Below, one piece after another: positions 8,162 through 48,097 of a stretch of DNA of 64,000 bases; position 1 is the stretch's first letter; the number at the start of each line of letters is the position of its first letter. Made by a program: the position numbers and the translations under genes. The notes beneath the pieces were generated by a model, which searched no databases, was not told where the DNA came from, and saw only the letters and a program-made list of their open reading frames with translations. Source of the stretch: Folioceros fuciformis (lineage: Eukaryota); contig JBNGIO010006239.1 in NCBI GenBank assembly GCA_049999805.1, positions 175,412 through 239,411 on the forward strand. The letters run 5' to 3'.

Positions 8162-11100
8162 ATGAAGCTCCGTGAGAGGAAGGTTGTTGTGGAAGCTTCT
8201 GGCCATGTTGACAAGAGCGCCGGTGTTGAAAAGTATTGCGAAGGTGAAAATGCAGACGATGATGTGGACGAGATCGAGGACGCGGCGACGGACGGCACGG
8301 CTAGAGCTGATGACATCTCTGCGGACTCGTCCGACCGAGGCGGTGGGATGGGCGTGGCCACCTCCGGGGGGAAGGTGAAGCGCTCACGGAAGGCCAAGCT
8401 GGTTAGAGGCGCGTCCGGCAAGAAGGCGGACGCCAATTCGCGAGGTCAGTCCATACTTAAGTATGTGAAGCCTAAAATCAACAATCCGGGNNNNNNNNNN
8501 NNNNNNNNNNNNNNNNNNNNNNNNNNNNNNNNNNNNNNNNNNNNNNNNNNNNNNNNNNNNNNNNNNNNNNNNNNNNNNNNNNNNNNNNNNCGATGGCCCC
8601 TGCGAAGCTCAGGAGAGTGATAGCGACGACGGGGTATTCGTCGTATCCCACCGCAAGTCCGTCTTGATCAGCAGGAAACGGAAGGTCCTCGCGCAGCCTG
8701 GGGAGGAGAAGAAGCTGCGGGAGGGCTTACGGGACGCTAGGGTAATTCGGTACAGAGACATGTCCTCCGCTGATGAATTGGAGGAGGAGAAAGAAGAGGA
8801 AGGCCAGGCGGCCTATATGCAACAAGAGCAGCCTACGCCCAGCAGGAGTGCAGGACAGGTGTGCTACAGCCGCAGGAAGAAAGACGCCGTTACTCCTGAC
8901 GGGGTGGGGAACGCCATGCCCCCGGACGAACATTGTCAGGATAACCCCAGGCCTGAGCCCGTGAAGCAGTACAAGAGGTTGCGGAAGAGGGTCGGCAGCC
9001 CCACATCCCCGGGTCTGGACGATTTCTCTGCGGTCGTGCATTCGCACGATAGGAAAGTGAGGCAGCGCAAGAAAATTGGAGACCCACAGCCTCGCTCGTT
9101 TGAAGGGCGACAGAGCAGTCCTGTGAGGAAGCAGCCGTCCAGATCTTGCGCACGGAAGCAAAATCTGGATGAGTCTGCAGACGAGGAGGCTTACTATGCG
9201 TCAGAGGACGAGGAGCCATATCATCGGCCCTCAAAGCACAGCAAGGGTGAGGCAACGGATATGAGCATCCCATATCAGGGTGAGGAGACTGTGGAATTGG
9301 AAACCTTCCCTTACAAAGTTGACCAGTATGGTTTGTGTTCCTTTCACGGTGATTATACGCCACCTAAGAAGAGGTTTGTCGGGTCTGTGGAGAAGATCCT
9401 GTCAGCAAGGACCACGTCTGAGCATGGGCGCGTCTTCTGTGTGAAGGAGCACCAGAAGAGCTACAGATCTGTGAGCTATGTTACGGAGAAGCAGTTGCAG
9501 CAGCAAAGTGCCCAGCTACTTAGAAATTTTTTGAAACGCCTGGACTCTCTTGGCCGTACTCAGGGACATGCCGGGGATGACGGGGAGAGTCCTGCATTCG
9601 ATCCTCACTTCATCCAGGTCGACAGGATAATTAGCTTCAAGAACAAGTTTTCCAAGAAGTGCTATTTAGTGAAGTGGAAAAATCTACCTTACACTGATTG
9701 CACGTGGGAGGAGGAAATTGCATTACGCTTTGATCGCCATGCGATCGACCGTTTTTTGCTCACCAGCAAGCCTGGCACACATTTTGAATCCTGGAAACTC
9801 AAGTCTCCTTTCAAAGATGGCAGGACCTTGCGAAGCTATCAGGAGGAAGGAGTGTCCTGGTTGGATCATGAATATGAAAGCAAGATGAATTGCATTCTCG
9901 CGGACGAAATGGGATTAGGAAAAACTATTCAGGTCAGTCATCTGCGTGCATAGCTTTGTCTCTTGTTTGCCCTTGCACGCAGATAATCGTGCAGGCTCTG
10001 ACTGAAAGGCCTCCGTTTTCTACTGTATTCAGTCTGTTGCCATGATTGAGAACCTGCGGTCCAAGCGAAAAAAGCAGGGTCCATTTTTGGTGGTGGCACC
10101 AGTCTCAACGATGGGGCACTGGCAAAGGGAAGTGCAATCTCTGACCACCATGAACTGTGTGGTGTATGGAGGGAACCAAGAGGATAGAGAGATGATCAGG
10201 AAGTTTGAATTTTTTTACGACAACAGCACACGGCCAAAATTTCATGTATGAAGAATTTGTGTGAAAGAAAGTATTGTGACGTTTTTCGATTTCTCGACAA
10301 GATGTGAAGGTTGTGTCCAACTGTCTTGGGATTGTACTTGCTTTATCTTTTGGCAGGTTCTACTGACAAGCTTTGAGATACTCATGAAGGACCAAACATG
10401 GCTCTCAAAGCACAACTGGGAGTATGTAATTATTGATGAGGCTCACCGGTAGGGAGTAGTGCTTCAGTTTGGCTCATAAACTTGTGCCCGTGCTTTGTTT
10501 GAGACTTTCTTCAAATGTTTTTGACAGTAGTGGGCTGTATGGTTATGGTGGTTCAGATTGAAAGCTAAGGATTCCAAAACAACTTCTGCTGTGAGGCTGG
10601 TTGTCAAACATGTTGTGCCAGGAGGACTGCTTTTGCTGACTGGAACTCCGGTTCAGAACAACATGAAAGAAATCTTGTAATACTTCTGTACAAGTGTGCG
10701 GTGCCTCTATTCGTGTGACTAGCTTGTCTGCAAAGCTTATGGACTGATTTTGAGTTCTTGTTTTGTGTTCACAGTGGACTATTGAATCTCTTGGATCCTG
10801 TGACATTTGGCTCTGAGGAAGTATTTTTGTCCAAGTATGGAGATTTGAAGGATGCAGGACAGGTGGCTGCTTCAAAGTGCTTGGATTGTATACAAGGCTT
10901 GTATGCTAAGACTTGTGCTGCGCCTTTATGTTTCTCTTTCCAACTGTGGTGCCCATCTCCCGTAGGTGAATGAGCTTCAGGAGCAAGTTCTCAGACCCAG
11001 ACTTCTGCGGCGTCTCAAAGAAGATGTTGAGAAAAGCATCCCACAGAAGGAGGAGGTATACTCACGGATCTCGGATGAATGGCATTTAAAATGATTTTTA

Positions 11101-22400: not shown

Positions 22401-23843
22401 TCATACAAATCCCACGGAGAAATATCGCAAGGCCCATCTTTCAGCAAGTCCAAATGAGGGTTCACCTTTTTGAGAGAGACAAGTTCCTTCCTAAGCGACT
22501 CAACCTCAGAGACTGAAATAATACCATCCTGTGCTGCGTCTCCAGTCCCTGCAGTAGGTGACATAAATTCATTTCTCTTCCAAACCAGAGGAAAGAGACA
22601 ACAAGATCCGCTACTTTCAGACACTCACGCCTTGCTTGAGATGAACCATAGAGCTGCTGAATGCGTCTATCCTTAGCAGCAACATCGGCCTGCAAGGGAA
22701 CAAGGGGTCACCTCAGCCAGAGAAGTTCTGTGATGACAATTTCTGCTCTGTAAAAGCTGTGTGTCAGGGTTTAGCTCGATCGTCCTATTGCTCATCTAAC
22801 TTGCATCATTGGAAGCGTACCTGTGACATCTCAAGCTTATTTGTCAGGATGCAGACTTTGTCTTGCAGTTCTTTCTCCATTTGCACTCTGCGTTATCATG
22901 CATAGACTTAGGGACAGACAAACTGAATGATAACTTGATACAGAGTCTCTTGTCAATATTCTGTGAAATCTTGGAAAAAGCTGCTCGTTCTTACCGAGAA
23001 CAGACCAACTCCGGTTGATTCCCGCTTGGAGAAGGCAGCGAAGGAGCTGCCAAGGGAGCGAAAACCCAAAACATCAATACTGCTGAGAGTGAGTGGTGAG
23101 GCTGTAAACGGTATGCCGATCAGGCAAAAGGAAACAGGACAGGAACAGGGCGTCTTTGACTCACAGAGTTTTTGGGATACCACAATCTGAGCGACGCTGT
23201 CAGATTTGCTTGCCTTGCACTCTGCATACACCAACCGGTTTTGTTTTATGAATCATTCCAGAGAGTCGCAACTAATTCCTGCTTAAACTGAGCACCCAGC
23301 AGCAGCACCAGCAGCGTTACGGTCACCTGTGGAGGGGCCCGGGGAGAGCTTGCTCAGGGTTGCTCGCAGTGCTTCGTTCGCGCTCTCCAGCTCCTGAATT
23401 CTCTGCATGCTGACGGTCCGCCATTGCCGTAAGGTCCCTTGCGAGTCCGCAACCTCCTCCTCATTGCTGGAAAGAGGACTATTCTGCTCGATAGCTGTGC
23501 AAGACGATTCCTCTTTCAATATGGGTGATCCGGCTTTCAGTTGCATTTCCGCGCTGTCCTTGGCAAGCCGTTCGTTGAGCAATCGCAAGCTCTCAGCCCT
23601 CAACCTCTCCTTGTGAAGATTGTCGGACGTACTGGTGAGCTGCGTCCTCAAATTGTGGCACGTCTCATTCATAGACGTCAGGTCGTGAGTGAGCTTTTCC
23701 ATGATTGCCATTGCAGCCGTGTCCAGCTTCTCCACCACGGCTGCCAGAGGAAGGGGTGCATGGGCGTACAAAGAGTCGTACCCCCAAGATTGCAGCTTCG
23801 CTATCAACGGAGCGTGCAATGCAGGCATGCTTGCTTGAACCAT
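16489..23843 (-). CDS. CEP135: Centriolar long coiled-coil protein CEP135/Bld10-like; many exons
   Basis: N-terminus LIAKLQSWGY...MAIMEKLTHDLTSMNETCHNLR resembles the recalled CEP135 N-terminal motif (KRLDQLGY...LPLVEKLFSDLVHTTESLR). It is followed by ~7 kb of minus-strand heptad-rich exons (e.g. LKTLITQLDSTREELV, LEALGKERDHLLSE). Last exon ALRVRPSIDGHEV* with stop at 16489-16491. Confidence 0.75.
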
Positions 23844-24910
23844 CCTGCCCTCCCCTTCAAGCTCGTCCTCGAGAAGAACAAGACTGAAAACGAGCAGGAT
23901 ACAAGAAGTAAATTCGGAGAGAGTCCGTGCAGGCAAATTTGAGAGGAATTGGCACTGAGGACAGTCCTGGAAACGTCGCCGTAACCGCTTCTGAGAGAGG
24001 CTGCGTTCGGAACTTCGGAATCCGGTCACAGCCAAAGCTTAGTAGGATGATCAGAGCTCCAAGAACCCAAAAACTGTAGTCGGCCCGGGAACTCAGGCTG
24101 TCTTGCAACAAAAGGATCCTCATGCGTCATGTGGGAGTTTTGAATCAGCCCGGCGGGCTCCATTTCTGTTAGCAGGGATCGAAATCGCAGTGCCAACCAG
24201 ATAGAAGGCTGCAACACTCTGCCGAGAAGCAATCCGATTGGGAGCTCCAACCACGATCTTTCAAGAAGACACGGCACTTGCGTTAGAAGCGCATCAAGAC
24301 ATGTGGGTCGGGTCGGGCTGTGAGTTCAAATGCTGCACTGTCTTGGTGGGCGCCTCCTTCAAGATGAGACGGATGATCGAATTATAGCGACTGCCCGAAA
24401 TCCAGAGCGTTCCCAGGAACGTCCCCCGCATTCGAGAGGCAGAGCGGCGAAGCGAGGAGGGCACCGGCCAGAAACCGGCTGCAGGCGGTCGGGCGACGAG
24501 GTCATGCCGAGCGAGGACGCGAGGATCTCTGCAAGTGCGGAAGGCCGGACTCCTACTCGTGCAAGCGCCGTCTCTGTGCATACATACCATACATATCTAG
24601 ATTAGGTCTTGCACATCCTTCCATGCTGGCTGCCGGGCTGGAACTGAAGCTTACTTACCCTGGTGGCTGACAGTAGGCGTCTCAGTAGGCGTCTGTTGTG
24701 AAATGGGAAGGGCCGCCCAGCCTGGTCCAGGAACAAGAGACTTGTAGTGGCCTCCAGCTGGTGGAGCAGGTGAGGTGAGAGGCCAGGAGCGGCAAATGCA
24801 CAATGTGGAGGGAGAGCCTCGTTGACAGATAGCAGCATGGAAGTGTTTCTAACTTGCCTGGATGCCAGGCTTTTTCTCCATTTGCCGGGCCGCAGGAGTG
24901 AGCAAGAGGG

Positions 24911-26328
24911 ATGGATGTAGATCCTCAGCAGTACGAGCATGTGGTAAGATGCTGGTTGCTGTTGGATGGGAGGCATTGCAGTGCATCGCAGTCATTGGGT
25001 GTCTGCAATCGGCACCATCAAAGAGCCCTGGGGATCATCTGGTTTCACTCAATGTGTGACTCAAAGCAGAGCATCAGCGACAAGGATGTGCAAAAGATTG
25101 TGTTATCGTATCTGGTGCACAATTGCTTCAAGGACACAGCGGAAGCCTTCGTTGCCGGCACGGAAATTGAATGCAGTTTGAACGCCCTTGCGGAAATGGA
25201 GACACGGAAGCGTACGTGCCATCACTACTTGAAAATCATGCCATTTTCCTTCTCGTGTCACTCGTCAGTCGGACCGCTTATGCCGTACCATGGATCGAAG
25301 GTGCTCGTTCCTGGCTTGTAAACGAGAAGAAAGCACGGGGGAAGGTAGCTCTGCATTACGCACTCTTGGTGCGGTCATGCTGCAGGAATCTATAACTCTG
25401 TACTGGAGGGCCAAGTGTTGAAAGCCATCAATCTCACCAACCGTTTTGCTGGAGACCTGTTAGCCACTAGCAAGGACATCCATTTCAAGCTTCTCAGGCT
25501 CCACTTCCTGGAATTGGTGCGGTCCAACGACTGGTACAATCCCTCCACCACCAGCTGAGTACCGCCATGACTGAACATTTTCCGCACTTACTTGAGGCCT
25601 AACTCAGGGCTGTGGCTCAGCAACGGAGCACTCGACTTCGCACAGAGGGAGCTTCAGCAGTATGGAGGTCAGGAGAAGTATGTTGACATGTTTCAGGTAA
25701 GCAAAAGCTGCGAGCAGATATCCTGTTTCGTAGCCCTATGCAGATATCTGCATTGATGGAACCAGTTTAAATCCTTGACGAAGTGGTACGTGGAGTTGCC
25801 ACAGGATTGCATGGCTCTGTTAGCGTACAGCGAGCCACAGATGTCTCCACTGCAGCATCTGCTCAGCGTGGAACACCGCCACAGCGTGGCAGATGTGCTC
25901 AACTGTGCCCTACTACGTGAGTAGCACCTGTTCCCGATTCAGAGTTCAGCCAGTGAAATGCTGTTTCTTTCGTAACACTCTACTCTAACAGTCTTCGTCC
26001 CTTTCTAATTTCCAGGGCGTGCCAACCTTCCACCCCACGCCGCGCTTGAAACGCTTCTGAAGCAGCTCACCGTGGTCACGCAACTGCAAGGGATTCACCT
26101 TCCGTGTATGTTTCCATCTTCCACGCTGCTCTCCACACGGTCTCGTGGACATGGCACTTGTTGCCGTCGGACTTATCCGACAGGAACTGTCGCGCCCCAC
26201 TGATCCGTCGACTCTCCATGCTCTTGTCTGTCAGGAACGTTCTTTACCAGCAATGGCAGGATGCGGTTGGTCGGCATCATGACACAAGAGGCCGTTCCTC
26301 CCATGAATCATCCACGCCACTGCCGTGA
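24911..26328 (+). CDS. GID8/TWA1-like LisH-CTLH-CRA protein (CTLH E3 ligase subunit); 3' end uncertain (~26100-26328)
   Basis: MDVDPQQYEHV, LisH motif DVQKIVLSYLVHNCFKDTAEAF, CTLH motif IHFKLLRLHFLELVR, and CRA motif DCMALLAYSEPQMSPLQHLLS..HRHSVADVLN, all on GT-AG-flanked exons. Confidence 0.88.
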
Positions 26329-26778
26329 GCAGCGGAGTGAATTTCGCTAGCACTCCCATCAGAGCCCCAGTCAGATACGTTATGGTCCATAATTTACAAG
26401 ACCCGTTGCCGCTATTGAACCAGCTTGTGACCTGTATGGCCACTCACCAGCCGGACTGGTCCTTCTCTTGATCTGGCTCGGAACTCGATTGTGGTTTGGC
26501 ACCTGATCGATGCATAGAGGAGGCAAGCACGGCTGGCGTGGACGCTGCAGGTGCGCGACGGAGGACCAAGTTGTCTCCTGTCGTTGTGATCTTTTCCTTA
26601 AATGTTTTTCCCGTCGGTGTCTTATGGTGTGAAACATGGGGTTGGTTATACAGGCCAGTCGTCGCTCGAAAGGGCACCCTTGTTATCTTACTGGGACCCG
26701 AGACGCTATCCCACAGCTTTCAGGGACGTAGCTTGTCCTCCTTCCGTCAGTCTCCTCGGGCAGGGCGGCGGGGCGAAG

Positions 26779-28122
26779 ATGGAGCTGCAGCTGAAGCTGA
26801 AGCCGCTGCTCGTGACCAAGCCGGAGATCCAGTTCGTGCTGCTGAGCTTCACGGATCTCCTGGGAGTGGCTCGCTCCAAGCTCGTGCCGCGGGACGCGGC
26901 CCTGGAGATGCTACAATCTGGAGAAGGCGCCGGCTTCGCGGGCTACGCGGCGCACCTCGATCTCAGCCCGGCGGACCCGGACGTGATGGCCATACCGGAC
27001 CCGGGTGCGATCGCATTCCAGCTGCCATGGAACCGCGAGCTGGCGTGGGTGCCGTGCGACCTCTTCCTGCGTGGCCAGCCATTGTCACAGTCACCGCGGC
27101 AGGTGCTGAAGGCGCAGGCGGCGCGGGCAGCTCAGCGCGGGCTCATGGTAAGGACGGGCGTGGAGGCGGAGTTCTACCTCCTGCACGCCTCCCAGCTCCA
27201 GCCAGGGGACCCGCGCGACCAGTCCGCCAAGCCCTGCTACGACCAGTCGGCCCTGACCCGTCCGGGCGCGGCCACTCTCCGGGTGGTGACCGCGCTCTGC
27301 GACCACATGCGTGAGCTGGGGTGGGGGCCGTACCAGGCGGACCACGAGGACGGGAACGGGCAGCTTGAGATCAACTGGGGGTACGCGGACTGCGTGGTGA
27401 CGGCCGACCGGCACGCCTTCTTCAAGTTCATGTGCAAAGCGGTGGCGGAATCCGTGGGAATGCGGGCCAGCTTCATGCCTAAGCCGTTCCTGGAGCGGAC
27501 AGGCAACGGTGCTCACTGCCACGTGTCCGTGTGGGGGGAGCATGGACGCAACCTCTTCCTGGACGACACGGACGAGCTGGGGCTGTCGCCCGCGGGCTAC
27601 GGCTTCATGGGCGGGGTGCTGGCGCATGCAAAGGGTTTGGCCGGGCTCACCAACCCGACCGTGAACAGCTACAAGCGGATCAACAACACCGGCGGCGGGA
27701 GTTCGTCGGGGTCCTCTTGGGCGCCTTGTTCCATTTCGTGGACGGGGAACAATCGCACGCACATGATCCGTGTCCCGGGCCCGGGAAGATTCGAGCTGCG
27801 TCTCCCCGACGGCGCCGCCAACCCATACCTCCTGCAGGCGGGGATTGTGGCGTGCGGGCTGGAGGGCATGGAGAAGGGGCTGGACCCTGGCCCGCGCTGC
27901 GACTGGAATGGGCACGGCCCGGCTCCTCCGGAGCATCCGTTTCTGGAGCAGCTGCCCACCAGCCTTTTGGACGCACTGCGGGAGCTGGAGGAATCTATTG
28001 TGCTCTCCGACACCTTGGGGGACCAGTTGGTGGGCGCCTACGTCAAGCTGCAGAGGCAGCAATGGAATTCGTATGCCGCACACTTGAGCTCCTGGGAATT
28101 GGACAACACCTTAGACTGCTGA
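26779..28122 (+). CDS. gmaS: Intronless glutamine-synthetase-family ligase of bacterial GlnT/GmaS type (gamma-glutamylmethylamide synthetase-like), 447 aa
   Basis: Single ORF with SFTDLLGVARSKLVP, GAGFAGYA, QLPW, TGVEAEF, KPCYDQSAL, LGWGPYQADHEDGNGQLEINW, TADRHAFFKFM, FMPKPF, TGNGAHCHVS, NPTVNSYKRIN, WAP..ISWTGNNRTHMIRVPGPGRFELRLPDGAANPYLLQA and a WELDNTLDC terminus. This is colinear with the recalled proteobacterial GmaS consensus. Confidence 0.88.
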   Translation: MELQLKLKPLLVTKPEIQFVLLSFTDLLGVARSKLVPRDAALEMLQSGEGAGFAGYAAHLDLSPADPDVMAIPDPGAIAFQLPWNRELAWVPCDLFLRGQPLSQSPRQVLKAQAARAAQRGLMVRTGVEAEFYLLHASQLQPGDPRDQSAKPCYDQSALTRPGAATLRVVTALCDHMRELGWGPYQADHEDGNGQLEINWGYADCVVTADRHAFFKFMCKAVAESVGMRASFMPKPFLERTGNGAHCHVSVWGEHGRNLFLDDTDELGLSPAGYGFMGGVLAHAKGLAGLTNPTVNSYKRINNTGGGSSSGSSWAPCSISWTGNNRTHMIRVPGPGRFELRLPDGAANPYLLQAGIVACGLEGMEKGLDPGPRCDWNGHGPAPPEHPFLEQLPTSLLDALRELEESIVLSDTLGDQLVGAYVKLQRQQWNSYAAHLSSWELDNTLDC

Positions 28123-28418
28123 CGGAGAGGTATCCCCCCTTGTATATATTTTGATCAAAGCTGTTCAATTTTCTCAAGATCTATCCCTAATCAATCTGGA
28201 AACACTAGCCCTGCCCTAATCATTAGACCAGCATCCTCCCCTCAAAACAGCCCAAAAAAAAAAACTGTTAGATATTCCACCCACAGGTCTCTGCAGAAAT
28301 GACACTGATCTCCCGACACCTTGTCTTCTGCGATTCAAACTAGTCTAGGTGTCAAAGTCAAAATTTACTGCTTCCCACACTTCTTTCCGGAACAACCGGA
28401 TAAAGGAGGACAAATAAC

Positions 28419-31052
28419 TCAGATGAGCAAAGACTCTCTCCTGTGTTCGCGCAGAATCACGGGAACACTGGTCGGAGGAACCTGGGACATTGCCACTGCG
28501 TTGTTAGCACAACGCCCTCGACATGAGGCGACAAGGAAAAAAGAGAAAAGAATGAGAGCTGGGAGGATTACCATGCCAAGCTCTGTAATGATCATTGCAA
28601 CGTAATCTGCTGGTGTAGCATCGTACCTGCAGGTTGTTAACCGACACCACACAATTAAACGACGGTCCACAGTCCAAACAACCACTTTCCCCTGTCTTCG
28701 CTGATGCTTTCGGTGGCAAAAAGCGGCAACTTGAAACAAGACACTTACGTTAGATTCAACAACTGGAGGTGCTCCAAATCTTCCCAGCCTTCCAAGGGCG
28801 TCAAGTCCTGTCTTCCTGCGACCTTGACTAGAACATCAGGGTCCCCTGCCACCGTTGCCCCAATCAGCCCTCATCTCCCACATGACAAGGACGAAAAGAG
28901 AAGGACTGGAGCAGCAAACTGGAGAATGAGGCTTCTTTGCTTGGCGAGGCAGGTAACTCACCTAACTCATTAGCGCAGATAGAATCCAATTGCACTCTTT
29001 CATGGAACTTGTACGTTTCGCAGCAGATCATTACCGGAATGTGGAACGAATGAGCCACCATGGCAACACACGCAGTGCCCACCCTCGAGTATACAGTCCC
29101 ATTTGCAAGGACGGATGCCGCTCCAAGAAAAACTCTAGTGACTTCGTGCATAATGTATGATATTGAGTTTATCTGGCAGTAGGTGCACTGCAGCCCCTTC
29201 TCCAGCAGTCTGCGTATCAGGTGGCGTCCTTCAAGCTTAGGCCTGGAATCCACCACCACCACCCTAAACTTCCGGCCAATTTCATGAGCCCTTAGAAGAA
29301 TCATCTCCACGACAGACGAGAAGCCATGTGTCAATAGCACATCTCCATCCCTAATCTTCGTCACAGCATGCTTGACTATCTCTGTATCAGCGAACACAAT
29401 CTTTTCTTGCAGGAATCGGTCAATCTCAGCAATGAGAGACGCCTTGGCCTCTGCCTCCTCTACATTGGAGAGCCTCACAATCCTCGTCTTCAAAAACTTG
29501 ATAACATTACCCATGCCTATAGACAGAGGCCTGCACTCTATGAGAAACGACACTTGACTGTTGATCCTCGCAGCTAAATCTCTCACCCAAGCCTTCTCAG
29601 GAGGTGTGCTGTAATCTTGAATCATTTCCCTGAAGGCGCTCAGCAACGCCACACACCGGGCATTTCCTCCAACAACATCTCCTGTCAAATATTGAAGCCC
29701 AATCTGCGTGAACAACAACATGGGAGGTAGGTATCGCACAGCATGGCAGACACAAACCGAACCTTGTCCAAAATCAACATGCCAGGAAAACGCATACCTT
29801 GTACACAGCAGGATGAGGGTGCATGAAATCCTCGTGGAAGTACTTGGCCTCAATCAGAGCCAACCTGTCCCCGTGAACAAACTGTGGCAGGTGTCTAAAC
29901 AGCTCCACCCTGTTCTTGGCCTCCGTCTGCTCCGTAAAAGCTCTCTTCCTGGCCTTAGCCACCCGCTGTGGGTCATCAAACTGCATCCTGGACGGCAACT
30001 TCTTATCCGCCACCTTCTTGTCTCCACCATCTTTTTTCTGGGCAGCAACAGGCTTCCCGACCTTGGGCTCTCTGAGTTCCTTCTGAGCAGGTGGCACGGA
30101 CACGCTGGCACTGTCCTGCCCACCACCAGTCCCCTTCCCACCACCTGCCGCCAGCCCACATCATCAATTCTTGCACACAGCGGCCAGCACCAACACATCC
30201 GTAACCGTAACCGTAACCGTAACCTAGCCACACCACATCAAACGCTGCCCAGGGTGCGCAAGTACCAACATCCGACCGCGAAGCCTTGACAGCCCGCTGC
30301 GCATTCTGAAGCGCGCGCCGCTCCGCCTTCGATGTCCGCTCCTTCAACGTCTTGGTCGTGTCTGCAGCAGGCGATGTGCAGCGGGCGGTCATGCCAACTG
30401 ATCACCCAACAATCCCAATCCTGCCAAAAAATTTAAACACCATCAAACGCAAGGTTGCAGGTTCCTGGTCCGTACTCCCGGCAGGCGGCACGCCTTCTTT
30501 CCCCGCCTTGGGCGCCGCACCCGCACCAGAGCCCGGGGCGGGACCCGGTGCCGCCGGCCCGGAGGCTCCCACACCCTCCGCACCCCTGAGCAGCATCGCC
30601 GTGTCTGTATACCCATCAGCGCCTTCCCCGGCCCGGATGGAAAGCCGCTCCGCAAATCCTCCCAACAGACCAAGACCCTTGCCCTTCTCCTTCCCCGCGC
30701 TGGCAGGCGACATCTCTCCCGCAGCCTCCAGCTGCAGGCTGTCGGTCCGGCTCAGGCTAACCCCGTTGCTAGACGGGGAGAGGGAGCTGACCAGGAGCGC
30801 ATCTGATGGGTTGTAGCTCCCGGCCACGAGGCCCCCCGGCTCCCCGGGAATCCGCTTCGGGGAGGGCACGGCCATGGGGATGGCCTTGGTCTGCGGGGGG
30901 CCGATCATGACGGGGGAAGGCGAATTAGCCGCGGCGATGGACGGGGGCGCCGCCGCCTCCGACGCCGCCCGCTGAGCCTCGGAGCCGGGAGTCACAAACC
31001 CCACCTGGCGCACGATAGGATCGATGACCATGCGGCCCCGTCGCGGGTCCAT
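28419..31052 (-). CDS. Translation initiation factor eIF2B subunit delta; multi-exon
   Basis: MDPRRGRMVIDPIVRQVGF, TSKAERRALQ, VELFRHLPQF, HPAVYKIGLQY, GGNARC, ECRPLS, DSRPKLEG, SRVGTA, CETYKFHERVQLDSI, YDATP, PPTSVPVILRE. Stop at 28419-28421. Confidence 0.95.
30199..30224. repeat. (CCGTAA)4 microsatellite in an eIF2B-delta intron
   Basis: ccgtaaccgtaaccgtaaccgtaacc read directly. Confidence 0.8.
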
Positions 31053-31680
31053 CCTGCTCCTCTCCCACTTCCACTTCCTGCTGCTGCTGCTGCTGCCGGG
31101 CTAGTTCCGAAGACGCAGAAGGAGACGATGCCTGACTGCCTGCATGTGGCGGGAGCCCTGCTGCCCGGTTCCACTCCGCTTGCGTGCATCACACTCCTCG
31201 CCGTGCGCTGTGCGCCGTGCTCCGTTCTCCGAGCTGGACGCGGAGGCAAACCTTGGAAAAGCAATGCGTATGGTCTGAGCCGTGCCGGGGCTGGACGACG
31301 CTCGTACTCCTCTCACTTATGCGTCGTCCGGTCCAAGTGTCCTCGCCACCTCCGTTTTGCTTTCGTCATCTACATATATAGACCTCCCGGCCGGATGCGG
31401 ATGCCCGCCTACGCCTATGCCACCTATATTGTCCATATTAGCATATTCCAACTTCTGCAAAACTTTGTTTGAGGGAAACCACTCTGGTATTGTCTGCCAT
31501 TCTCTTCAAGGAAGCACTGTGAAGGCCAGTTGATTACTCTGTGCACTTGGGCAGGCCAGTACTGTCTTCTCAGATCTTGTTGTGGACGGGAGGACAGGAC
31601 TGGTTGAGGGTATCGTTCTCTTGGACCAGCTTGGTTGGTGATCTGCCTAAGCAGTGGATGGTGAGCTTGCTGGTGTGGGG

Positions 31681-34617
31681 ATGGAGGTGGGTCGTTGTGC
31701 CTCCACCTCCAACTGGAGCTTGCAGATTGATCCTGACTCTCGCAGAGGCGGAGGAGGGCAAGTGGGCGTAGCTGCTGAGACCGTGGGCCAGCTTTGTGAG
31801 CGGGGCCATGTGGCTGAGGCTGTTGAGGGATTGGGAGTGTTGGTGCAGCGGGACTGTCCTATTTCCACAGCTCTTTTTTACGGTGTGCTCAAGAGCTGCA
31901 TGGTGAAGAAGGATCTTGTGCTGGGTCGCCGGGTGCATGCTGCCACGGTGAGGCATGGGTACCAGTCGGATAGGTTCCTGGGCAATCATATCCTGCGAAT
32001 GTATGCTTCTCATGGTAGGTTGGAGGAAGCGATGGATGTGTTCACCGTGGTTCGCAAACCTGATGCCTTCATGTGGTCTTCTATAATCACTGCGCATGTG
32101 AAACACGGAGAGGCTGAGCATGCCGTACAGTTGTATCGTCAGATGCGCAGGTCGAAGGTGAAGCCAGATGGCCATGTGTTTGTGGCAGCCCTCCAGGCTT
32201 GTGCAAGGGGAGCAGACTTGAAGGCTGGGGAGGAGGTGCATGCTGATGTGTTGGCCAGTGGGGTTGAGCCTGATGCGTTCGTTTGCAGTTGCTTGGTGGA
32301 CATGTATGCAAAGTGTGGAAGTCTGGAAGACGCTCAACGATTGTTTGATTGGCTTCCCAAGAAATCTGTGGTGACGTGGAATACCATGATCACAGGGTAC
32401 TCTGCGCAGGGCATGGGTGAGGAAGCCCTTCGTCTTTACAGCGCTATGCAACGAGAAGGCAGTACTGCACCTAATTCTGTGACATTTGTGTGCCTGCTGC
32501 AGGCGTGTGCGAGTGTTGGTGTTCCAGCTCTAGAGAAGGGGAAGCAGCTTCACACACAGATTAAGGAGCAAGGAATTCAGGTTGATGTGGTGGTGGGTTG
32601 CAGCCTGGTAAACATGTATGCAAAGTGTGGCAGCCTCCAGGATGCACGGAGCGTGTTTGACACTCTTTCTCACAGGAATGTAGTGACTTGGACTGCTCTC
32701 ATAGCAGGGTACTCTCAGCATGGCATGGGTCAGGAGGCGCTCAATCTGTACACTGCTCTGCAAGACGACGGCTTCACCGCACCTGACCCTGTGACATTTG
32801 TCTGCCTGCTGCAGGCATGCGCAACTGTGGGCTCTCCAGCTTTGGACACGGGCAAGCAACTTCATGCACAGATTGGAGAACAAGGACTGCAAGCAGATTT
32901 GACTATAGGCAACAACTTGGTGAACATGTATGCAAAGTGTGGCAGCTTGGAGGATGCTCGGAGTGTGTTTGATAGACTTGGTCGAAAGGATGCAGTGACA
33001 TGGACCGCCTTAATTGCAGGGTACTCCCGACAGGGCATGGGTAAGGAAGCTCTCGCTGTTTACAGTGCCATGCAAGAAGAAGGAGTTGCTGCACCAGATT
33101 CTGTGACATTCCTGTGCCTCCTGCAGGCATGTGCAAGTGAGGGGACGTCTGCTTTGGAGAAGGGGAAGCTGCTTCATGCCGAGATTGGAGAACGACAACT
33201 TCAGCTTGATGTCGCTGTAGGATGCAGCCTGGTAAACATGTATGCAAAGTGTGGCAGCTTGAAGGATGCTCAGAGCGTATTTGACAAGCTCCCTGAAAAA
33301 AATGAAGCAACTTGGACTGCGCTCATACAAGGCTACTCCCAGCACGGCTTGGGCCAGGAGGCCCTTCATAGGTACCGCGCTATGGAGGAAGAGGGCCTTG
33401 CTGCACATTCCGGCACATTCTTGCGCCTCCTGCAGGCATGTGCAAGCATGGGCGCCTCGGCTTTGGAGGACGGGAAGGAGCTTCATGCACGCATTGAACG
33501 GCAGGGCCTTCAGTCCGATGTGTCACTAAGTTGCAGCCTCATAAACATGTATGCAAAATGCGGCAGCCTGGAGGATGCACAACGTGTTTTCGACGGACTC
33601 GGCAAGAAGGATGTGGTGATATTCAATGCCATGATAGCAGGCTACTCCCAGCAGGGCATGGGGGAGGAAGCCCTCCGTCTCTACAGCACTATGCCAAAAG
33701 AAGGCATCGGTCCACCCGACTCTGTCACCTTTCTTTCCCTCTTGCAAGCATGTGCGAGTTTGGGAGCACTGTATGCTGGAAGGCACCTTCATGCACAGAT
33801 CAGGGAACAAGGGCTTGAATCTGATCAGTTTGTCGCCATCAGTTTGATCAACATGTACGCCAAGTCCGGGAGCATGGTGGACGCACAGGAGGTGTTCGAT
33901 GCATTGCCGCAGCGAGACGTCATCGCCTGGAATGCCCTGATTGCAGGCTACACCCGCCAGGGAGACAGCGGAGTGGTCTTCCACCTGGTCCGCAAAATGC
34001 AAGAGGAGGATGGCCTACTTCCAGATGCCATCATCCTCCTCAGCGTACTAACAGTGTGCAGTCATGCCGGTCTGGTCGACAAAGGCCGGGAGCTCTTCGA
34101 GTCCATGAACAGAGAGTCCGGCATCACTCCAACCGCAGAGCACTACTCATGCATGGTAGACCTCCTGGGTCGTGCAGGCCAACTGGACGAGGCCCTAGCC
34201 CTAGTCAAGACCATGCCTGTTCCGCCTCACGGTGCACTCTGGCTCAGTCTCTTAGGCTCTTCCCGGAAGTGGGGCAATGTGGATGTAGGACGCTGTGCCT
34301 TCGATGAAGCCGTGAAGCTGGACGAGAAAGACGCCGCTCCGTACGTGCTGATGGCCAACATTTACACCGGCGTCCAGATGCTGGAGCAGGCCCAGGAGAT
34401 GCACGCCAGGAGAAAGCTAATGGGAGCCTGGAAGCTCCCGGGCCAGAGCTGGTGGACAGACATGGACGGCCTGGCTCACAGCTTCGTGGTTGGCGATAGG
34501 AAGCATCCTGAGAGTGACGATATCTACGCAAAACTCGATCAGCTAGTACTCCGAATGAAGGAAGAAGAATGTGTGCCGAAAGATCTAAACGGCCGTCTGA
34601 ACAACGTGAACACTTAA
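31681..34617 (+). CDS. PLS-class pentatricopeptide repeat protein with E/E+ extension, ending before the DYW deaminase core; probable organellar RNA-editing specificity factor
   Basis: Long uninterrupted ORF of P-L-S triplets (NMYAKCGSLEDA; VTWTALIAGYSQ.GMG.EAL; DSVTFVCLLQACAS), then HYSCMVDLLGRAG, an E domain, and KLPGQSWWTDMDGLAHSFVVGDRKHP. The stop comes before any HxE/CxxC/DYW. First in-frame ATG is 31681; an upstream exon is possible (AG at 31653-31654). Confidence 0.93.
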   Translation: MEVGRCASTSNWSLQIDPDSRRGGGGQVGVAAETVGQLCERGHVAEAVEGLGVLVQRDCPISTALFYGVLKSCMVKKDLVLGRRVHAATVRHGYQSDRFLGNHILRMYASHGRLEEAMDVFTVVRKPDAFMWSSIITAHVKHGEAEHAVQLYRQMRRSKVKPDGHVFVAALQACARGADLKAGEEVHADVLASGVEPDAFVCSCLVDMYAKCGSLEDAQRLFDWLPKKSVVTWNTMITGYSAQGMGEEALRLYSAMQREGSTAPNSVTFVCLLQACASVGVPALEKGKQLHTQIKEQGIQVDVVVGCSLVNMYAKCGSLQDARSVFDTLSHRNVVTWTALIAGYSQHGMGQEALNLYTALQDDGFTAPDPVTFVCLLQACATVGSPALDTGKQLHAQIGEQGLQADLTIGNNLVNMYAKCGSLEDARSVFDRLGRKDAVTWTALIAGYSRQGMGKEALAVYSAMQEEGVAAPDSVTFLCLLQACASEGTSALEKGKLLHAEIGERQLQLDVAVGCSLVNMYAKCGSLKDAQSVFDKLPEKNEATWTALIQGYSQHGLGQEALHRYRAMEEEGLAAHSGTFLRLLQACASMGASALEDGKELHARIERQGLQSDVSLSCSLINMYAKCGSLEDAQRVFDGLGKKDVVIFNAMIAGYSQQGMGEEALRLYSTMPKEGIGPPDSVTFLSLLQACASLGALYAGRHLHAQIREQGLESDQFVAISLINMYAKSGSMVDAQEVFDALPQRDVIAWNALIAGYTRQGDSGVVFHLVRKMQEEDGLLPDAIILLSVLTVCSHAGLVDKGRELFESMNRESGITPTAEHYSCMVDLLGRAGQLDEALALVKTMPVPPHGALWLSLLGSSRKWGNVDVGRCAFDEAVKLDEKDAAPYVLMANIYTGVQMLEQAQEMHARRKLMGAWKLPGQSWWTDMDGLAHSFVVGDRKHPESDDIYAKLDQLVLRMKEEECVPKDLNGRLNNVNT

Positions 34618-45530: not shown

Positions 45531-48097
45531 ATGGTGGCCAACAAGCGCGTCAAGGTGGTGGTGGAGAATGGCAGTGGTCTCGGCAGTCGGAAGGAGGATA
45601 TCCTCCTCCAGCAGCACGACCCTAGCGTCAACGGATCCGGGCAGGACCATCACATGGATACCGCGGCCGTTATCCCCAAGTTCTGCTTCGAGCGCGCCGG
45701 GGGTGAGATCGTGCACGATCCGCTCAACTGGGTGCGCACTTCTGAGACCCTGGAGGGCAGCCATCTGGACGAGGTGAAGCAGATGGTGGAGTTGTTCTAT
45801 GGCTCCGACGAGGTGGCCATCGAGGGGGTCAATTTGACTGTCGCCCAGGTGACCGCCGTCGCCCGCCGCCCCAGCGTGAAGGTCCGCCTCGATGTTGAGG
45901 CCGCCAAACAGCGGGTTGACGAGAGTTCCAGCTGGGTGCTCTCTAACATGGCGAAGGGCACTGACACCTACGGTGTTACTACGGGTGCGTTGCAATGCCA
46001 CTATCGTTCAGTTTTTGCCGCCCTGGTGTTGGTGCTTTCGGAGGTGCTGCAATCAGGGTGCTAAGGATTTGGGAAGCGGTGCTGTCGACGCAGTCAATTC
46101 TGCTCTGATTGCCTGGCTTGGTTGACGGGTGGTGTGTGTGTTCGCTGTTTCAGGATTCGGGGCCACCTCGCACAGGAGGACGTCGCAGGGGGCAGAGCTG
46201 CAAAAGGAGCTCATCCGGTTTCTGAACGCAGGGGTTTTTGGGAAGGGAGACGGTAACACGCTGCCAAGTACGGCGGCTCGCGCAGCGATGCTAGTGCGGA
46301 CCAACACGCTGCTGCAGGGGTTTTCGGGCATCCGGTGGGACATTCTGTGTGCCCTGGAGAAGCTTTTGAACGCTCACGTGACGCCGAAGCTGCCTCTGCG
46401 GGGGACCATCACGGCGTCGGGGGATCTGGTGCCGCTGAGCTACATTGCGGGGTTGATTACGGCCCGTCCTAATTCCCGCTGCTTCACGGCCGAGGGGAAG
46501 GAGGTGACTGCGGAGGAGGGGTTGCGCATTGCCGGGGTAACTGAGCCTTTTGTGCTGCAGCCCAAGGAAGGGTTGGCCATCGTGAATGGCACGGCCGTGG
46601 GGGCCGCCATGGCCTCCATGGTCTGCTTCGACGCAAACATCCTGGCTGTCATGGCGGAGGTTATGTCGGCTTTCTTTTGTGAGGTCATGAACGGTAAGCC
46701 TGAGTTTACCGATCCCCTCACCCACAAGCTGAAGCACCATCCAGGCCAGATGGAGGCTGCCGCCATCATGGAGGTGAGCATTGGTGCAATGCACTCGCAC
46801 TATTTGGTTGAGACATTCTCTGAGATGTGGCGAAATTCGAAAGATTTTCCAGTCTTTCTTGCTCGTCGGTTTTATGTTCCTGAATGTGTCCGTGTCTCTG
46901 CAGTGGGTGTTGGATGGAAGTTCCTACATGAAGCTGGCAGCAAAATTGCATGAGACGGACCCTCTCAAGAAGCCAAAGCAGGACAGGTATGCTCTGCGGA
47001 CCTCCCCGCAGTGGCTCGGGCCGCAAATTGAGGTGATCCGGAACGCGACCCACAGTATTGAGAGGGAAATTAACTCCGTCAACGACAACCCGATCATCGA
47101 CGCAGCCCGGTCCATCGCTTTGCACGGAGGAAACTTCCAGGGGACTCCCATCGGAGTGTCTATGGACAACATGAGGCTGGCGCTGGCGGCCATCGGGAAG
47201 CTCATGTTTGCGCAGTTCTCTGAGCTGGTGAACGACTATTATAATGGGGGTCTGCCGAGCAATCTGTCGGGTGGGCCAAACCCGAGTTTGGACTACGGAT
47301 TTAAAGGGGCTGAAATCGCCATGGCCTCCTACACGTCGGAGCTGCAGTTCCTGGCTAATCCGGTGACGAACCATGTGCAGAGTGCGGAGCAACATAACCA
47401 GGATGTGAATTCGCTGGGACTGGTGTCCGCCAGGAAGACGGCCGAGTCTGTGGAGATTCTCAAGCTGATGACAGCCACTTACCTCGTCGCTCTGTGCCAG
47501 GCTGTGGATCTGAGGCATTTGGAGGAGAACATGGTCGCCGCGGTGAAGAAGACGGTGTCGTTGGTTTCTAAGAAGGTGCTTTCCACTGGCAGCAATGGAA
47601 CTTTGCTGCAGTCCAGATTTTACGAGAAGGAGCTGCTGTATGTGGTGGAGAACCAGCCTCCTTTCACCTACGTGGACGATGCTTCCAGCCCAGCTTACCC
47701 CCTGATGCAGAAGCTGCGGCAGGTGTTAGTGGAGAAAGCTTTGAAACCTCCCAAGGAGCTGGAGGCTGACGAGAGGCTGACTTTGTTTCAGAGAATTCCT
47801 CTGTTTGAAGAGGAATTGGTGGCAGCCCTGGACGTTGATGTACCGGCTGCCAGGGCGGCCTATGACAAGGGGCTGGCTACCTTGCCTAACAGGATACAAG
47901 AATGCAGGACGTACCCGCTCTATCAGTTCGTGCGGTCAGAGCTGAACACCGAGCTGCTTTGTGGCCTCATCAAGAACGGCTCTCCAGGCTCTGACTTCGA
48001 GAAGGTGTTCGATGCAATTAGCGATGGCAAGCACATCGCCCCCCTGCTGAAGGTGTTGGAAGGATGGCAGGGAACTCCTGGCCCATTCGAGGAATGA
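45531..48097 (+). CDS. PAL: Phenylalanine ammonia-lyase; exons 45531-45984, 46154-46773, 46904-48097
   Basis: [22 protein letters not shown] (Phe at the specificity site, i.e. PAL rather than TAL), MIO motif [50 protein letters not shown]. Confidence 0.97.

What the first reader, a model, noticed from the sequence alone, without database searches (positions are those of the whole stretch)
26779..28122. Bacterial methylamine-pathway enzyme (GmaS/GlnT) embedded in a plant chromosome: candidate horizontal gene transfer
Seen: an intact, intronless, GC-rich 447-aa ORF with no N gap on either side, within ~450-700 bp of the intron-containing GID8-like gene and 296 bp from the convergent eIF2B-delta stop. 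Established: its motif string (GAGFAG, KPCYDQ, WGPYQxDHEDxNGQ, TADRHxFFKFM, WTGNNRTHMxRVPGPGRFELRLPDGAANPYLLQA, C-terminal TLD) is that of bacterial gamma-glutamylmethylamide synthetase from the N-methylglutamate pathway. It is not that of plant GSII or the NodGS/GSI-like fusion proteins. Inference: a domesticated bacterial gene that lets a seed-free plant glutamylate methylamine or other alkylamines. I cannot tell whether this has already been reported.
Basis: partly seen in the sequence, partly recalled or inferred. Interest (0 to 1): 0.92.

Follow-up and report, generated by a model that had tools for sequence, protein, structure and literature searches.

The report
Bacterial-type methylamine ligase gene in plant
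A land-plant chromosome carries an intact, apparently expressed gene for a bacterial-type glutamate-methylamine ligase, but the gene is shared with mosses, liverworts, a lycophyte and a close algal relative, so it is an old inherited acquisition and not a recent transfer.

Summary
Window 26779-28122 (+) is an uninterrupted 447-aa ORF, GC 0.66, with no N nearby, between a LisH/CTLH (GID8-like) gene and a convergent eIF2B-delta gene.

The protein passes the NCBIfam equivalog TIGR03105 (554 bits, cut-off 469.6) and fails GlnA and PuuA. It keeps 20 of 20 catalytic and substrate residues of crystallised Rhodovulum GmaS, including the two that separate GmaS from glutamine synthetase.

Contamination is excluded. 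DNA contigs bridge both junctions. In a second study, an intron-skipping (RNA-derived) contig joins the spliced upstream plant gene, a 103-nt GT..AG intron and the whole ORF.

It is not lineage-specific. Homologues occur in Calypogeia, Riccia, Sphagnum, Ceratodon, Diphasiastrum and the alga Spirogloea. All 13 plant/algal rows form one clade (bootstrap 100 / SH-aLRT 100) nested among bacterial sequences. The window shares 11 of 11 clade-diagnostic residues.

Best reading: one ancient bacterium-to-streptophyte transfer, then vertical descent. Activity as a cytosolic glutamate-alkylamine ligase is inferred, not shown. I found no paper on it, but HGT catalogue supplements were not visible.

The parts
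26779..28122 (+). Coding sequence of the GmaS-type (TIGR03105) glutamate-alkylamine ligase, 447 aa plus stop, no intron. The start context is gaagATGg (A at -3, G at +4).
   Evidence: X3 record 17 covers 26651-28264 with 0 differences.
26551..26653 (+). 103-nt GT..AG intron in the transcribed leader (GTGCGCGA...TTATACAG). It removes the alternative upstream ATG at 26602. It may belong to the GS 5'UTR or to a 3'UTR/read-through of the upstream gene.
   Evidence: Inferred from the coordinates of X3 record 17: the pieces sum to exactly 2996 nt only if 26548-26650 (equivalently 26551-26653) is skipped. The joint itself was among the 3 the tool did not list.
26654..26778 (+). Last leader exon, 125 nt, with no upstream ATG. 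The stretch before the intron (26237-26550) holds 7 upstream ATGs.
28123..28264 (+). 3' untranslated region, GC 0.41. The RNA-derived contig ends at a genomic A11 run (28254-28264). The convergent eIF2B-delta contig begins about 20 nt further on.
   Evidence: The start of record 18 near 28284 was worked out from its piece coordinates.
24911..26236 (+). Context: upstream LisH/CTLH (GID8-like) gene, 200-aa spliced ORF. Seven GT..AG introns lie between 24770 and 26234; the first is upstream of the ATG. Its frame ends at 26236, so it is not fused to the GS ORF.
   Evidence: Joints; reconstruction. Pfam CTLH 34.6 and 21.3 bits, LisH 20.1 bits (below cut-off), on single exons.
28284..31333 (-). Context: convergent eIF2B-delta gene with CT..AC (minus-strand GT..AG) introns.
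   Evidence: Pfam IF-2B 218 bits. Spliced X3 record 18. 70-78% identity to land-plant eIF2B-delta.

Best explanation
The ORF is the host plant's own nuclear copy of a gamma-glutamylmethylamide-synthetase-type enzyme (GmaS, the NCBIfam TIGR03105 'type III glutamate--ammonia ligase' family). Shown or strongly supported: it is integrated between ordinary plant genes, it lies on an RNA-derived contig, it is intact, and it belongs to a single clade of homologues from a zygnematophyte alga, liverworts, mosses and a lycophyte, which nests among bacterial (named rows mostly alphaproteobacterial) sequences. The simplest history is one bacterium-to-streptophyte transfer before the split of Zygnematophyceae and land plants, then vertical descent, with no seed-plant copy seen in the searches. 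Inferred: the protein works like bacterial GmaS. ATP phosphorylates the gamma-carboxylate of glutamate, and a deprotonated short primary amine (methylamine, ethylamine) attacks to give an N5-alkylglutamine. It probably acts in the cytosol, because it has no N-terminal extension over the bacterial proteins. Without the downstream N-methylglutamate pathway genes, which were not seen in the 22 stretches scanned here, its role would be capture or detoxification of alkylamines, or synthesis of gamma-glutamyl amides, and not growth on methylamine.
For: Family: TIGR03105 554.4 bits (cut-off 469.6), against GlnA 247 (cut-off 429) and PuuA-type 230 (cut-off 650). All 10 rows of the plant-like alignment match TIGR03105. 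The closest solved structure is 7cql, E 7.6e-145, covering residues 15-447.

Residues: mapped through the alignment onto the residues named in PMC7948447 (passages), 20 of 20 are identical. These include A54 (GS Asp50' position), W314 (GS Glu-flap Glu position), and the amine pocket Y154, Q186, D188, E190, E197, N199, K34. All 20 are invariant in the 10 plant-like rows. The window keeps 79 of 79 columns invariant in the other 229 ingroup rows.

Integration: X1 contigs 24449-27413 and 27511-30425 bridge both junctions with 0 differences. X3, from a different sample and study, has record 17, which joins spliced LisH/CTLH exons, the leader and the whole ORF.

Phylogeny: in the careful IQ-TREE of 64 rows, the plant-like 13 form a clade at 100/100 and in 100% of 200 bootstrap trees. 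Land plants including the window have 100/97. The bacterial rows are one group in 0% of bootstrap trees. Keeping the window out of the other 12 costs 15.1 lnL, p-AU 0.045. The window shares 3/3, 8/8, 11/11 and 12/15 plant-diagnostic residues, while the bacterial maximum is 1, 1, 3 and 3.

Biochemistry of the family: RhGmaS has Km 27 uM for methylamine, 58 uM for ethylamine and 8.7 mM for NH4Cl (PMC7948447 Table 1).
Against: No enzyme assay exists for any plant member, so substrate preference is extrapolated from a bacterial protein that is about 53-57% identical.

Several plant-diagnostic residues sit next to catalytic elements: S312/S313 beside W314 in the gating loop, A245 beside H246, and Y56/H59 in the loop equivalent to GS Asp50'. 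Specificity may therefore have shifted (positions mapped by me).

The bacterial sister group of the plant clade is weakly supported (66/74), and the outgroup root has 68/86. The donor is unresolved, and 'nested' depends on that root.

The window's branch is about three times longer than its relatives' (0.94 against a median of 0.25). A first quick-tree AU test did not reject placing it outside the other 12 (p 0.762; the constrained tree was 18.8 lnL better than the poorly searched free tree).

Transcription of the ORF rests on continuity of an assembled contig. The tool warns that a contig across two genes does not show a single transcript, and X3 has some depth in all 30 bins, so it may also hold unspliced RNA or DNA. 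No run is on record as RNA.

Absence from seed plants and ferns rests on the 120 best rows of two capped searches.
Confidence: 0.7

Rival explanations
1. A recent transfer from a bacterium into this plant lineage alone, independent of the copies in other seed-free plants. This is the reading the first reader implied.
For: GC3 of 0.85 is the highest of the coding stretches measured locally. There is no intron in the CDS. Identity to bacteria (up to 57%) is almost as high as to other plants (54-60%). The quick-tree AU test did not reject the window lying outside the other 12.
Against: The 13-row plant clade has 100/100 support and the window lies inside the land-plant subclade at 100/97. The careful-tree AU test gives p 0.045 against excluding it. 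The window shares 11 of 11 plant-diagnostic residues, against at most 3 in any of 217 bacterial rows. A native neighbouring exon has GC3 0.80. The start context is eukaryotic and a spliced leader lies upstream.
Confidence: 0.05
2. Bacterial contamination or a chimeric assembly: the ORF is not part of the plant chromosome.
For: The ORF is a GC-rich island of bacterial family type. The DNA sample does contain another organism's related gene: an X2 contig at depth 95.7 matches only 27229-27256 and 27399-27432 and has unlike flanks.
Against: Two X1 DNA contigs each contain half of the ORF plus plant neighbour sequence, with 0 differences. A contig from a different study joins spliced plant exons to the complete ORF. 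There are no N runs nearby. The protein belongs to a plant-only clade. X1 may be the sample the window was assembled from, so only X3 counts as independent.
Confidence: 0.02
3. The protein is a working enzyme, but its main substrate in the plant is not methylamine. It could be a low-affinity ammonium-assimilating GS (the historical GlnT reading) or a ligase for another amine such as ethanolamine, hydroxylamine or a polyamine.
For: RhGmaS accepts seven amines, including NH4Cl. The abstract of PMC13740247 reports that GS-family paralogues in mycobacteria use ethanolamine and polyamines (listing). Plant-specific substitutions flank the gating loop and a metal-binding His. No N-methylglutamate-pathway partner genes were seen among the 22 ORFs and exons scanned in this window.
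Against: The GS ammonium-handling Asp50' and the Glu-flap Glu are replaced by Ala and Trp, as in GmaS. All seven residues of the proposed methylamine pocket are identical. The GlnA and PuuA models score far below their cut-offs.
Confidence: 0.2
4. Not a horizontal transfer: an ancestral eukaryotic or mitochondrion-derived GSI-like gene retained only in streptophytes after wide loss.
For: The nearest named bacterial rows are mostly alphaproteobacteria, the group from which mitochondria derive (the link to mitochondria is recalled knowledge). The gene tree inside the clade roughly follows the species order of alga, then land plants.
Against: No other eukaryotic group appears among the best 120 rows of either search. 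55-65% identity to present-day bacteria is high for a gene of that age (the judgement on age is inference). The plant clade sits inside, not beside, the sampled bacterial TIGR03105 diversity in all bootstrap trees.
Confidence: 0.05

Closest known systems
GmaS of Rhodovulum sp. 12E13 (RhGmaS; PDB 7cql and five related entries; PMC7948447)
   Same: Full-length alignment, E 7.6e-145. 20 of 20 ATP, Mg, glutamate and amine-pocket residues are identical, as are both GmaS-versus-GS discriminators. The length class is the same, with no extra domain.
   Different: About half of the residues differ. The window has small insertions of its own (SGE near 47-49, PGAA near 161-164, two residues near 303-305). 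It carries the plant-clade signatures SGSSW, DWNGH and AHCHVS. It lies in a eukaryotic nuclear setting with a spliced leader. No N-methylglutamate pathway genes were seen beside it.
NCBIfam TIGR03105 'type III glutamate--ammonia ligase' (the GlnT/GmaS family of the bacterial N-methylglutamate pathway)
   Same: Scores 554 bits, above the 469.6 equivalog cut-off, matching model positions 6-435 of 435.
   Different: The model is built for bacteria and archaea. 'Type III' here is the Rhizobium GlnT naming and not the large GSIII/GlnN class (recalled, not tested). In bacteria the gene usually sits with mgsABC/mgdABCD (earlier scan notes; not tested here); here it stands alone.
Unnamed or 'hypothetical' homologues in seed-free streptophytes: Calypogeia fissa, Riccia fluitans and R. 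sorocarpa, Sphagnum spp., Ceratodon purpureus, Diphasiastrum complanatum, Spirogloea muscicola SM000008S22208
   Same: One clade at 100/100, shared diagnostic residues, and the same catalytic set.
   Different: Only 54-60% identical to the window protein, which has the longest branch. The Spirogloea record spans 3.8 kb for a 441-aa product, which suggests introns; the window CDS has none (locus line). The Diphasiastrum model lacks a block that includes the WxxYQxDHE residues.
Plant GSI-like/NodGS fusion proteins and plant GSII (GLN1/GS1, GS2, GLN2)
   Same: They share the Gln-synt_C catalytic domain superfamily.
   Different: There is no amidohydrolase-type N-terminal domain: Pfam finds only Gln-synt_C in the 447 aa. 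No GSII or NodGS row appears among the best 120 hits. PMC9310647 (passages) treats only GSII in plants.
'Glutamine synthetase' listed as acquired from CFB bacteria in Physcomitrella (Yue et al. 2012, PMC3493653, Table 1)
   Same: Another GS-superfamily gene proposed as a bacterial acquisition in a moss (passages).
   Different: The stated donor is CFB bacteria and the stated role is glutamine biosynthesis. Its Figure S8 was not visible, so whether it is the same gene could not be checked. Physcomitrium did not appear among the hits.

Membership tests
GmaS / TIGR03105 (gamma-glutamylmethylamide synthetase type) | Score above the curated equivalog cut-off of the family model over its full length | tested here: met
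   554.4 bits against 469.6, model positions 6-435 of 435.
GmaS / TIGR03105 (gamma-glutamylmethylamide synthetase type) | GS Asp50' replaced (Ala48' in RhGmaS) and GS Glu-flap Glu replaced (Trp300 in RhGmaS) | tested here: met
   A54 and W314, mapped through the alignment. The residue roles come from PMC7948447.
GmaS / TIGR03105 (gamma-glutamylmethylamide synthetase type) | Amine pocket and catalytic bases (Tyr147, Gln175, Asp177, Glu179, Glu186, Asn188, Lys30') | tested here: met
   Y154, Q186, D188, E190, E197, N199 and K34: 7 of 7 identical.
GmaS / TIGR03105 (gamma-glutamylmethylamide synthetase type) | ATP, Mg and glutamate ligands of the GS fold. The named set is 15 residues, of which Gln175, Glu179 and Glu186 are already counted in the amine-pocket row, leaving 11 further ligands. 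With Ala48' and Trp300 this gives the total of 20. | tested here: met
   The 11 further ligands E129, E131, Y185, W200, Y202, H246, H248, S250, R326, R331 and E339 are all identical. The three shared with the amine pocket (Q186, E190, E197) are identical too.
GmaS / TIGR03105 (gamma-glutamylmethylamide synthetase type) | Genomic company of N-methylglutamate synthase/dehydrogenase genes (mgsABC, mgdABCD) | tested here: not met
   None among the 22 ORFs and exons of the window scanned with Pfam. The neighbours are plant genes. The rest of the genome could not be searched.
GmaS / TIGR03105 (gamma-glutamylmethylamide synthetase type) | Preference for methylamine over ammonium in vitro; dodecameric assembly | not testable with these tools
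   Needs recombinant protein.
Type I glutamine synthetase (GlnA) | Score above the TIGR00653 cut-off; Asp50' and Glu-flap Glu present | tested here: not met
   247.4 bits against 429.15. Ala and Trp occupy the two positions.
Gamma-glutamylputrescine synthetase (PuuA type) | Score above the NF045547 cut-off | tested here: not met
   230.2 bits against 650.
Plant NodGS / GSI-like fusion | N-terminal amidohydrolase-like domain fused to a GSI-like domain | tested here: not met
   The protein is 447 aa and Pfam finds only Gln-synt_C, residues 104-442. In the spliced form the nearest in-frame upstream stop is at 26469 and there is no upstream in-frame ATG.
Bacterium-derived nuclear gene of streptophytes (ancient HGT class) | The eukaryotic sequences form one clade nested among bacterial sequences | tested here: met
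   Clade at 100/100. Bacteria are one group in 0% of 200 bootstrap trees. The outgroup root has only 68/86 and the sister group 66/74.
Bacterium-derived nuclear gene of streptophytes (ancient HGT class) | Physical integration and eukaryotic expression features | tested here: met
   Bridging DNA contigs; an RNA-derived contig with a spliced leader; A at -3 and G at +4 around the ATG.
Bacterium-derived nuclear gene of streptophytes (ancient HGT class) | Restricted distribution among eukaryotes | tested here: inconclusive
   Only streptophytes appear among the best 120 rows of two searches, and no seed plant or fern is named. The lists are capped, and hornwort, fern and other algal proteomes may be missing.

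The most novel reading that the evidence does not exclude
Seed-free streptophytes (zygnematophyte algae, bryophytes, lycophytes) keep a dedicated glutamate-alkylamine ligase of bacterial origin. This would give them an unrecognised branch of nitrogen metabolism: capture or detoxification of methylamine and ethylamine, for example from microbial partners or decaying matter, as N5-alkylglutamines (theanine-like amides). Seed plants would have lost this route. The plant-specific changes beside the gating loop may have retuned the amine preference.
Probability: 0.3. Interest if true: 0.7.

Novelty: new member of a known kind. Interest (0 to 1): 0.5.

Why it matters
If the enzyme is active, non-seed plants have a high-affinity way to ligate methylamine or ethylamine to glutamate that is not part of textbook plant nitrogen metabolism. 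That would bear on three things:
- methylammonium toxicity and uptake studies;
- the origin of gamma-glutamyl amides such as theanine;
- which bacterial genes were recruited around the time plants moved onto land and later lost in seed plants.

It is also a clean, testable case. One gene is conserved across about six lineages, with a solved bacterial structure and known kinetics to compare against. As evidence of horizontal transfer as such, it adds one more family to a class that already holds many reported families.

Tried and rejected
- **Whole-genome search:** no genome is held for the window. Paralogues and N-methylglutamate pathway genes elsewhere in the host could not be sought.
- **Earlier scan notes by place:** nothing found.
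- **Sequencing runs:** no RNA holder is listed. X3 is only guessed to be RNA. I treat it as RNA-derived because only its contigs skip GT..AG introns.
- **Quick IQ-TREE of 74 rows:** superseded. Its AU test found a constrained tree 18.8 lnL better than the free tree, which showed the quick search was poor. I rebuilt with a careful search after dropping 10 of the 18 outgroup rows. These were the longest branches, and they included out_P0262, which had fallen inside the ingroup.
- **Host identification:** the eIF2B-delta exon gave 70-78% identity to liverworts, Ginkgo, lycophytes, mosses and angiosperms alike, so the lineage is not pinned down. Short introns (87-174 nt), tight gene spacing, about 50% GC and an E/E+ PPR gene would fit a hornwort. 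That is recalled knowledge and not shown.
- **Protein atlas:** only bacterial 'type III glutamate--ammonia ligase' clusters.
- **Literature:** nine searches in all. Searches looked for a plant report, and none of the listed papers links GmaS or TIGR03105 to plants. In the listing, 0 of the 10 papers shown contain 'GmaS'. Ma et al. 2022 (Mol Plant) is not held, and supplements are closed. The gene may therefore sit in an HGT catalogue table I could not see.
- **Not run:** structure prediction and complex prediction, because the sequence match to a solved structure is already full-length.
Full report
**1. The observation**

Window 26779-28122 (+) is an uninterrupted 447-codon frame ending in TGA. 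The region has GC 0.66-0.69 against 0.498 for the window, and GC3 is 0.85. The only N runs are at 3976-4075, 8491-8590 and 52412-52421.

The neighbours are plant genes:
- an IF-2B family exon at 28864-29853 (-);
- a 988-aa PPR protein with E and E+ motifs at 31651-34617 (+);
- aromatic amino acid lyase (PAL-type) exons at 46126-48097 (+);
- a chromo/SNF2 exon at 8469-9953 (+).

The upstream gene has LisH and CTLH/CRA matches on single exons, so the 'GID8-like' label holds. High GC is not unique to this ORF. The native 5' exon of eIF2B-delta has GC 0.71 and GC3 0.80. Other local coding stretches have GC3 0.54-0.69.

**2. Is it really part of the plant chromosome, and is it expressed?**

Three public runs of one organism label hold the stretch. 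X1 and X2 (one sample, 2025) may be the source of the assembly. X3 (2017) comes from another sample and study.

Laid on 23000-32000, the X1 contigs 24449-27413 and 27511-30425 each join half of the ORF to a plant neighbour with no differences.

Only the X3 contigs skip introns, and they do so at GT..AG or CT..AC boundaries (15 joints listed, 3 more not shown), so they derive from RNA. X3 record 17 (2996 nt) contains the spliced LisH/CTLH exons, then 26235-26547, then 26651-28264, which is the whole ORF with 0 differences. It ends at a genomic A11 run.

The piece lengths add up to exactly 2996 only if 103 nt are skipped. That places a canonical intron at 26551-26653 (GTGCGCGA...TTATACAG), 125 nt before the ATG. 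This joint is inferred from coordinates, because it was among those not listed.

The upstream ORF stops at 26236, so there is no fusion protein. In the spliced form no in-frame ATG lies upstream of 26779, and the alternative ATG at 26602 lies inside the intron. The last leader exon has no upstream ATG, while the 314 nt before the intron have seven. The GS mRNA may therefore start late, and the intron could belong to read-through from the upstream gene. The start context is gaagATGg.

Caveats:
- The tool warns that a contig across two genes does not show one transcript.
- X3 has some depth in all 30 bins, so it may also hold unspliced RNA or DNA.
- No run is on record as RNA.

A separate X2 contig at depth 95.7 matches only two stretches of about 30 nt in the ORF and has unlike flanks. 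This shows that another organism's related gene is present in that DNA sample. It is not the window's sequence.

**3. What the protein is**

NCBIfam gives TIGR03105 ('type III glutamate--ammonia ligase', equivalog) 554.4 bits against a cut-off of 469.6. GlnA (247 against 429), the PuuA type (230 against 650) and PRK09469 fail. Pfam finds only Gln-synt_C.

The closest solved structure is 7cql (E 7.6e-145, residues 15-447). Next is 9qur, deposited as glutamate--methylamine ligase (328 bits). Ordinary GS I chains score about 219 bits or less.

7cql is RhGmaS of PMC7948447. I read passages of that paper. It names:
- the ATP, Mg and glutamate ligands;
- a negatively charged amine pocket (Tyr147, Gln175, Asp177, Glu179, Glu186, Asn188, Lys30');
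- the catalytic bases Asp177 and Glu186;
- two differences from GS: the Glu-flap glutamate is Trp300, and Asp50' is Ala48'.

I mapped these by hand through the alignment. Chain numbering equals native numbering plus 20, and that offset gives the right residue type at all 20 positions. The window protein has the same residue at 20 of 20 positions: K34, A54, E129, E131, Y154, Y185, Q186, D188, E190, E197, N199, W200, Y202, H246, H248, S250, W314, R326, R331 and E339. All 20 are invariant in the 10-row plant-like alignment.

The window protein also keeps 79 of 79 columns that are invariant in the other 229 ingroup sequences. Its long branch is therefore not decay of the core.

RhGmaS has Km 27 uM for methylamine, 58 uM for ethylamine, 211 uM for hydroxylamine and 8.7 mM for NH4Cl, and it is a dodecamer.

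**4. Where it came from**

The word-index search listed 120 of 8000 scored hits. The top rows were Calypogeia fissa, Sphagnum compactum and S. balticum, Riccia fluitans, a EukProt record SM000008S22208, and four unnamed rows, all at 55-59% identity. Named bacterial rows, mostly alphaproteobacteria, followed closely at 53-57%.

A profile of the ten plant-like rows ranked these first. It added Riccia sorocarpa, Ceratodon purpureus and Diphasiastrum complanatum. That makes 12 of the 120 listed rows plant-like. No seed plant or fern is named, although the same database returned many angiosperm and gymnosperm eIF2B-delta proteins. The SM000... identifier format belongs to Spirogloea muscicola (figure legend of PMC12290401).

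For trees I used:
- all 13 plant-like rows;
- 43 of the 217 full-length bacterial rows, picked greedily at under 78% identity;
- outgroup representatives from the exhaustive search.

The quick tree of 74 rows gave the plant clade SH-aLRT 100. However, an AU test exposed a poor search: the constrained tree was 18.8 lnL better, p 0.762.

The careful tree used 64 rows, keeping the 8 shortest of the 18 outgroup rows, under LG+C20+F+G4 PMSF. It gives:
- the 13 plant-like rows as one clade at 100/100, present in 100% of 200 bootstrap trees;
- the ten land-plant rows including the window at 100/97;
- the three alga-like rows at the base;
- the window sister to the other land-plant rows;
- the bacterial rows as a single group in 0% of bootstrap trees.

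On this tree, holding the other 12 together without the window costs 15.1 lnL (p-AU 0.045). This is a marginal rejection.

Independent of the tree, I counted residues fixed in the other 12 plant rows and rare in the 217 bacterial rows. The window carries 3/3, 8/8, 11/11 and 12/15 of them at four thresholds. No bacterial row carries more than 1, 1, 3 and 3.

Weak points:
- the bacterial sister group has only 66/74 support;
- the outgroup root has only 68/86;
- the bacterial sample was drawn from the best hits to plants.

The donor therefore cannot be named beyond the TIGR03105 family, whose named close members here are mostly alphaproteobacteria.

**5. Reading**

The gene is neither a contaminant nor a private acquisition of this plant. 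It is the host's orthologue of a gene present in a zygnematophyte alga, liverworts, mosses and a lycophyte. The simplest history is one bacterial acquisition before Zygnematophyceae and land plants diverged, followed by vertical descent. Seed-plant copies were not seen within the limits of capped lists.

The host is a land plant with no close relative named in the database: eIF2B-delta is 70-78% identical to all major groups alike. A hornwort would fit the short introns, tight spacing, GC and E/E+ PPR gene. That is recalled knowledge, not a result.

The mechanism is inferred from RhGmaS. ATP and Mg phosphorylate the gamma-carboxylate of glutamate. D188 deprotonates the amine, which attacks the acyl phosphate. 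E197 then resolves the tetrahedral intermediate, giving an N5-alkylglutamine.

There is no N-terminal extension relative to the bacterial proteins, which suggests the cytosol. No N-methylglutamate pathway partner was seen among the 22 ORFs and exons scanned. A role in capture, detoxification or amide synthesis is therefore more likely than methylotrophy.

Several plant-diagnostic residues lie beside catalytic elements (S312/S313 next to W314, A245 next to H246, Y56/H59 in the loop equivalent to Asp50'). A shift in amine preference is possible.

**6. Known or new**

The enzyme family and the phenomenon of bacterial genes entering early streptophytes are both known. Yue et al. 2012 list a moss 'glutamine synthetase' from CFB bacteria (PMC3493653, passages). 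Whether it is this gene could not be checked, because its figure is supplementary. A review of plant GS evolution treats only GSII (PMC9310647, passages).

The literature searches listed no paper that links GmaS or this family to plants. Ma et al. 2022 is not held, and supplements are closed. Database names for the plant proteins are 'unnamed protein product', 'hypothetical protein' or 'Glutamine synthetase'.

Earlier notes of this scan concern bacterial gmaS loci only, not plant DNA.

I file it as a new member of a known kind, of moderate interest: a testable candidate for an unrecognised alkylamine-ligating step in seed-free plants.

Noticed in passing
window 27229-27256 and 27399-27432 (run X2): A contig at depth 95.7 in the DNA sample matches only these two short stretches of the ORF and runs on into unlike sequence on both sides. 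It is probably a GS/GmaS-family gene of an associated organism in the sample. It is distinct from the window's gene.
   Followed up: partly
window 24259-24659: The same RNA-derived contig (X3 record 17) also carries a CT..AC joint (24573 to 24659). So a minus-strand transcript upstream is merged with the LisH/CTLH and GS transcripts. Contigs in this compact region chain neighbouring genes together. The 251-aa ORF at 23283-24038 (-) has no Pfam match.
   Followed up: no
window 31651-34617 (+): An intronless 988-aa PLS-class PPR protein with E and E+ motifs, the type linked to organellar RNA editing in land plants (recalled).
   Followed up: no
window 46126-48097 (+): Two adjacent open frames both match aromatic amino acid lyase, at profile positions 48-249 and 247-460. 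This is a PAL-type gene, split either by a frame change or by a short intron.
   Followed up: no
window 49194-52646: A cluster of long overlapping open frames on both strands with no Pfam match. A 10-N gap lies at 52412-52421.
   Followed up: no
protein P0126 (Diphasiastrum complanatum): The lycophyte homologue (425 aa) lacks a block holding seven otherwise invariant residues, including the WxxYQxDHE active-site stretch. This could be a gene-model error or a degenerate copy.
   Followed up: no
protein P0231: The top row of the exhaustive representative search is a 4424-aa protein with seven GS-like stretches (32% identity). It is an unusual multi-GS-domain giant of unknown source.
   Followed up: no
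window 28253-28264: One X3 contig has an extra A in the A11 run where the GS contig ends (table 4). This is either a homopolymer length difference or a trace of a poly(A) tail.
   Followed up: no
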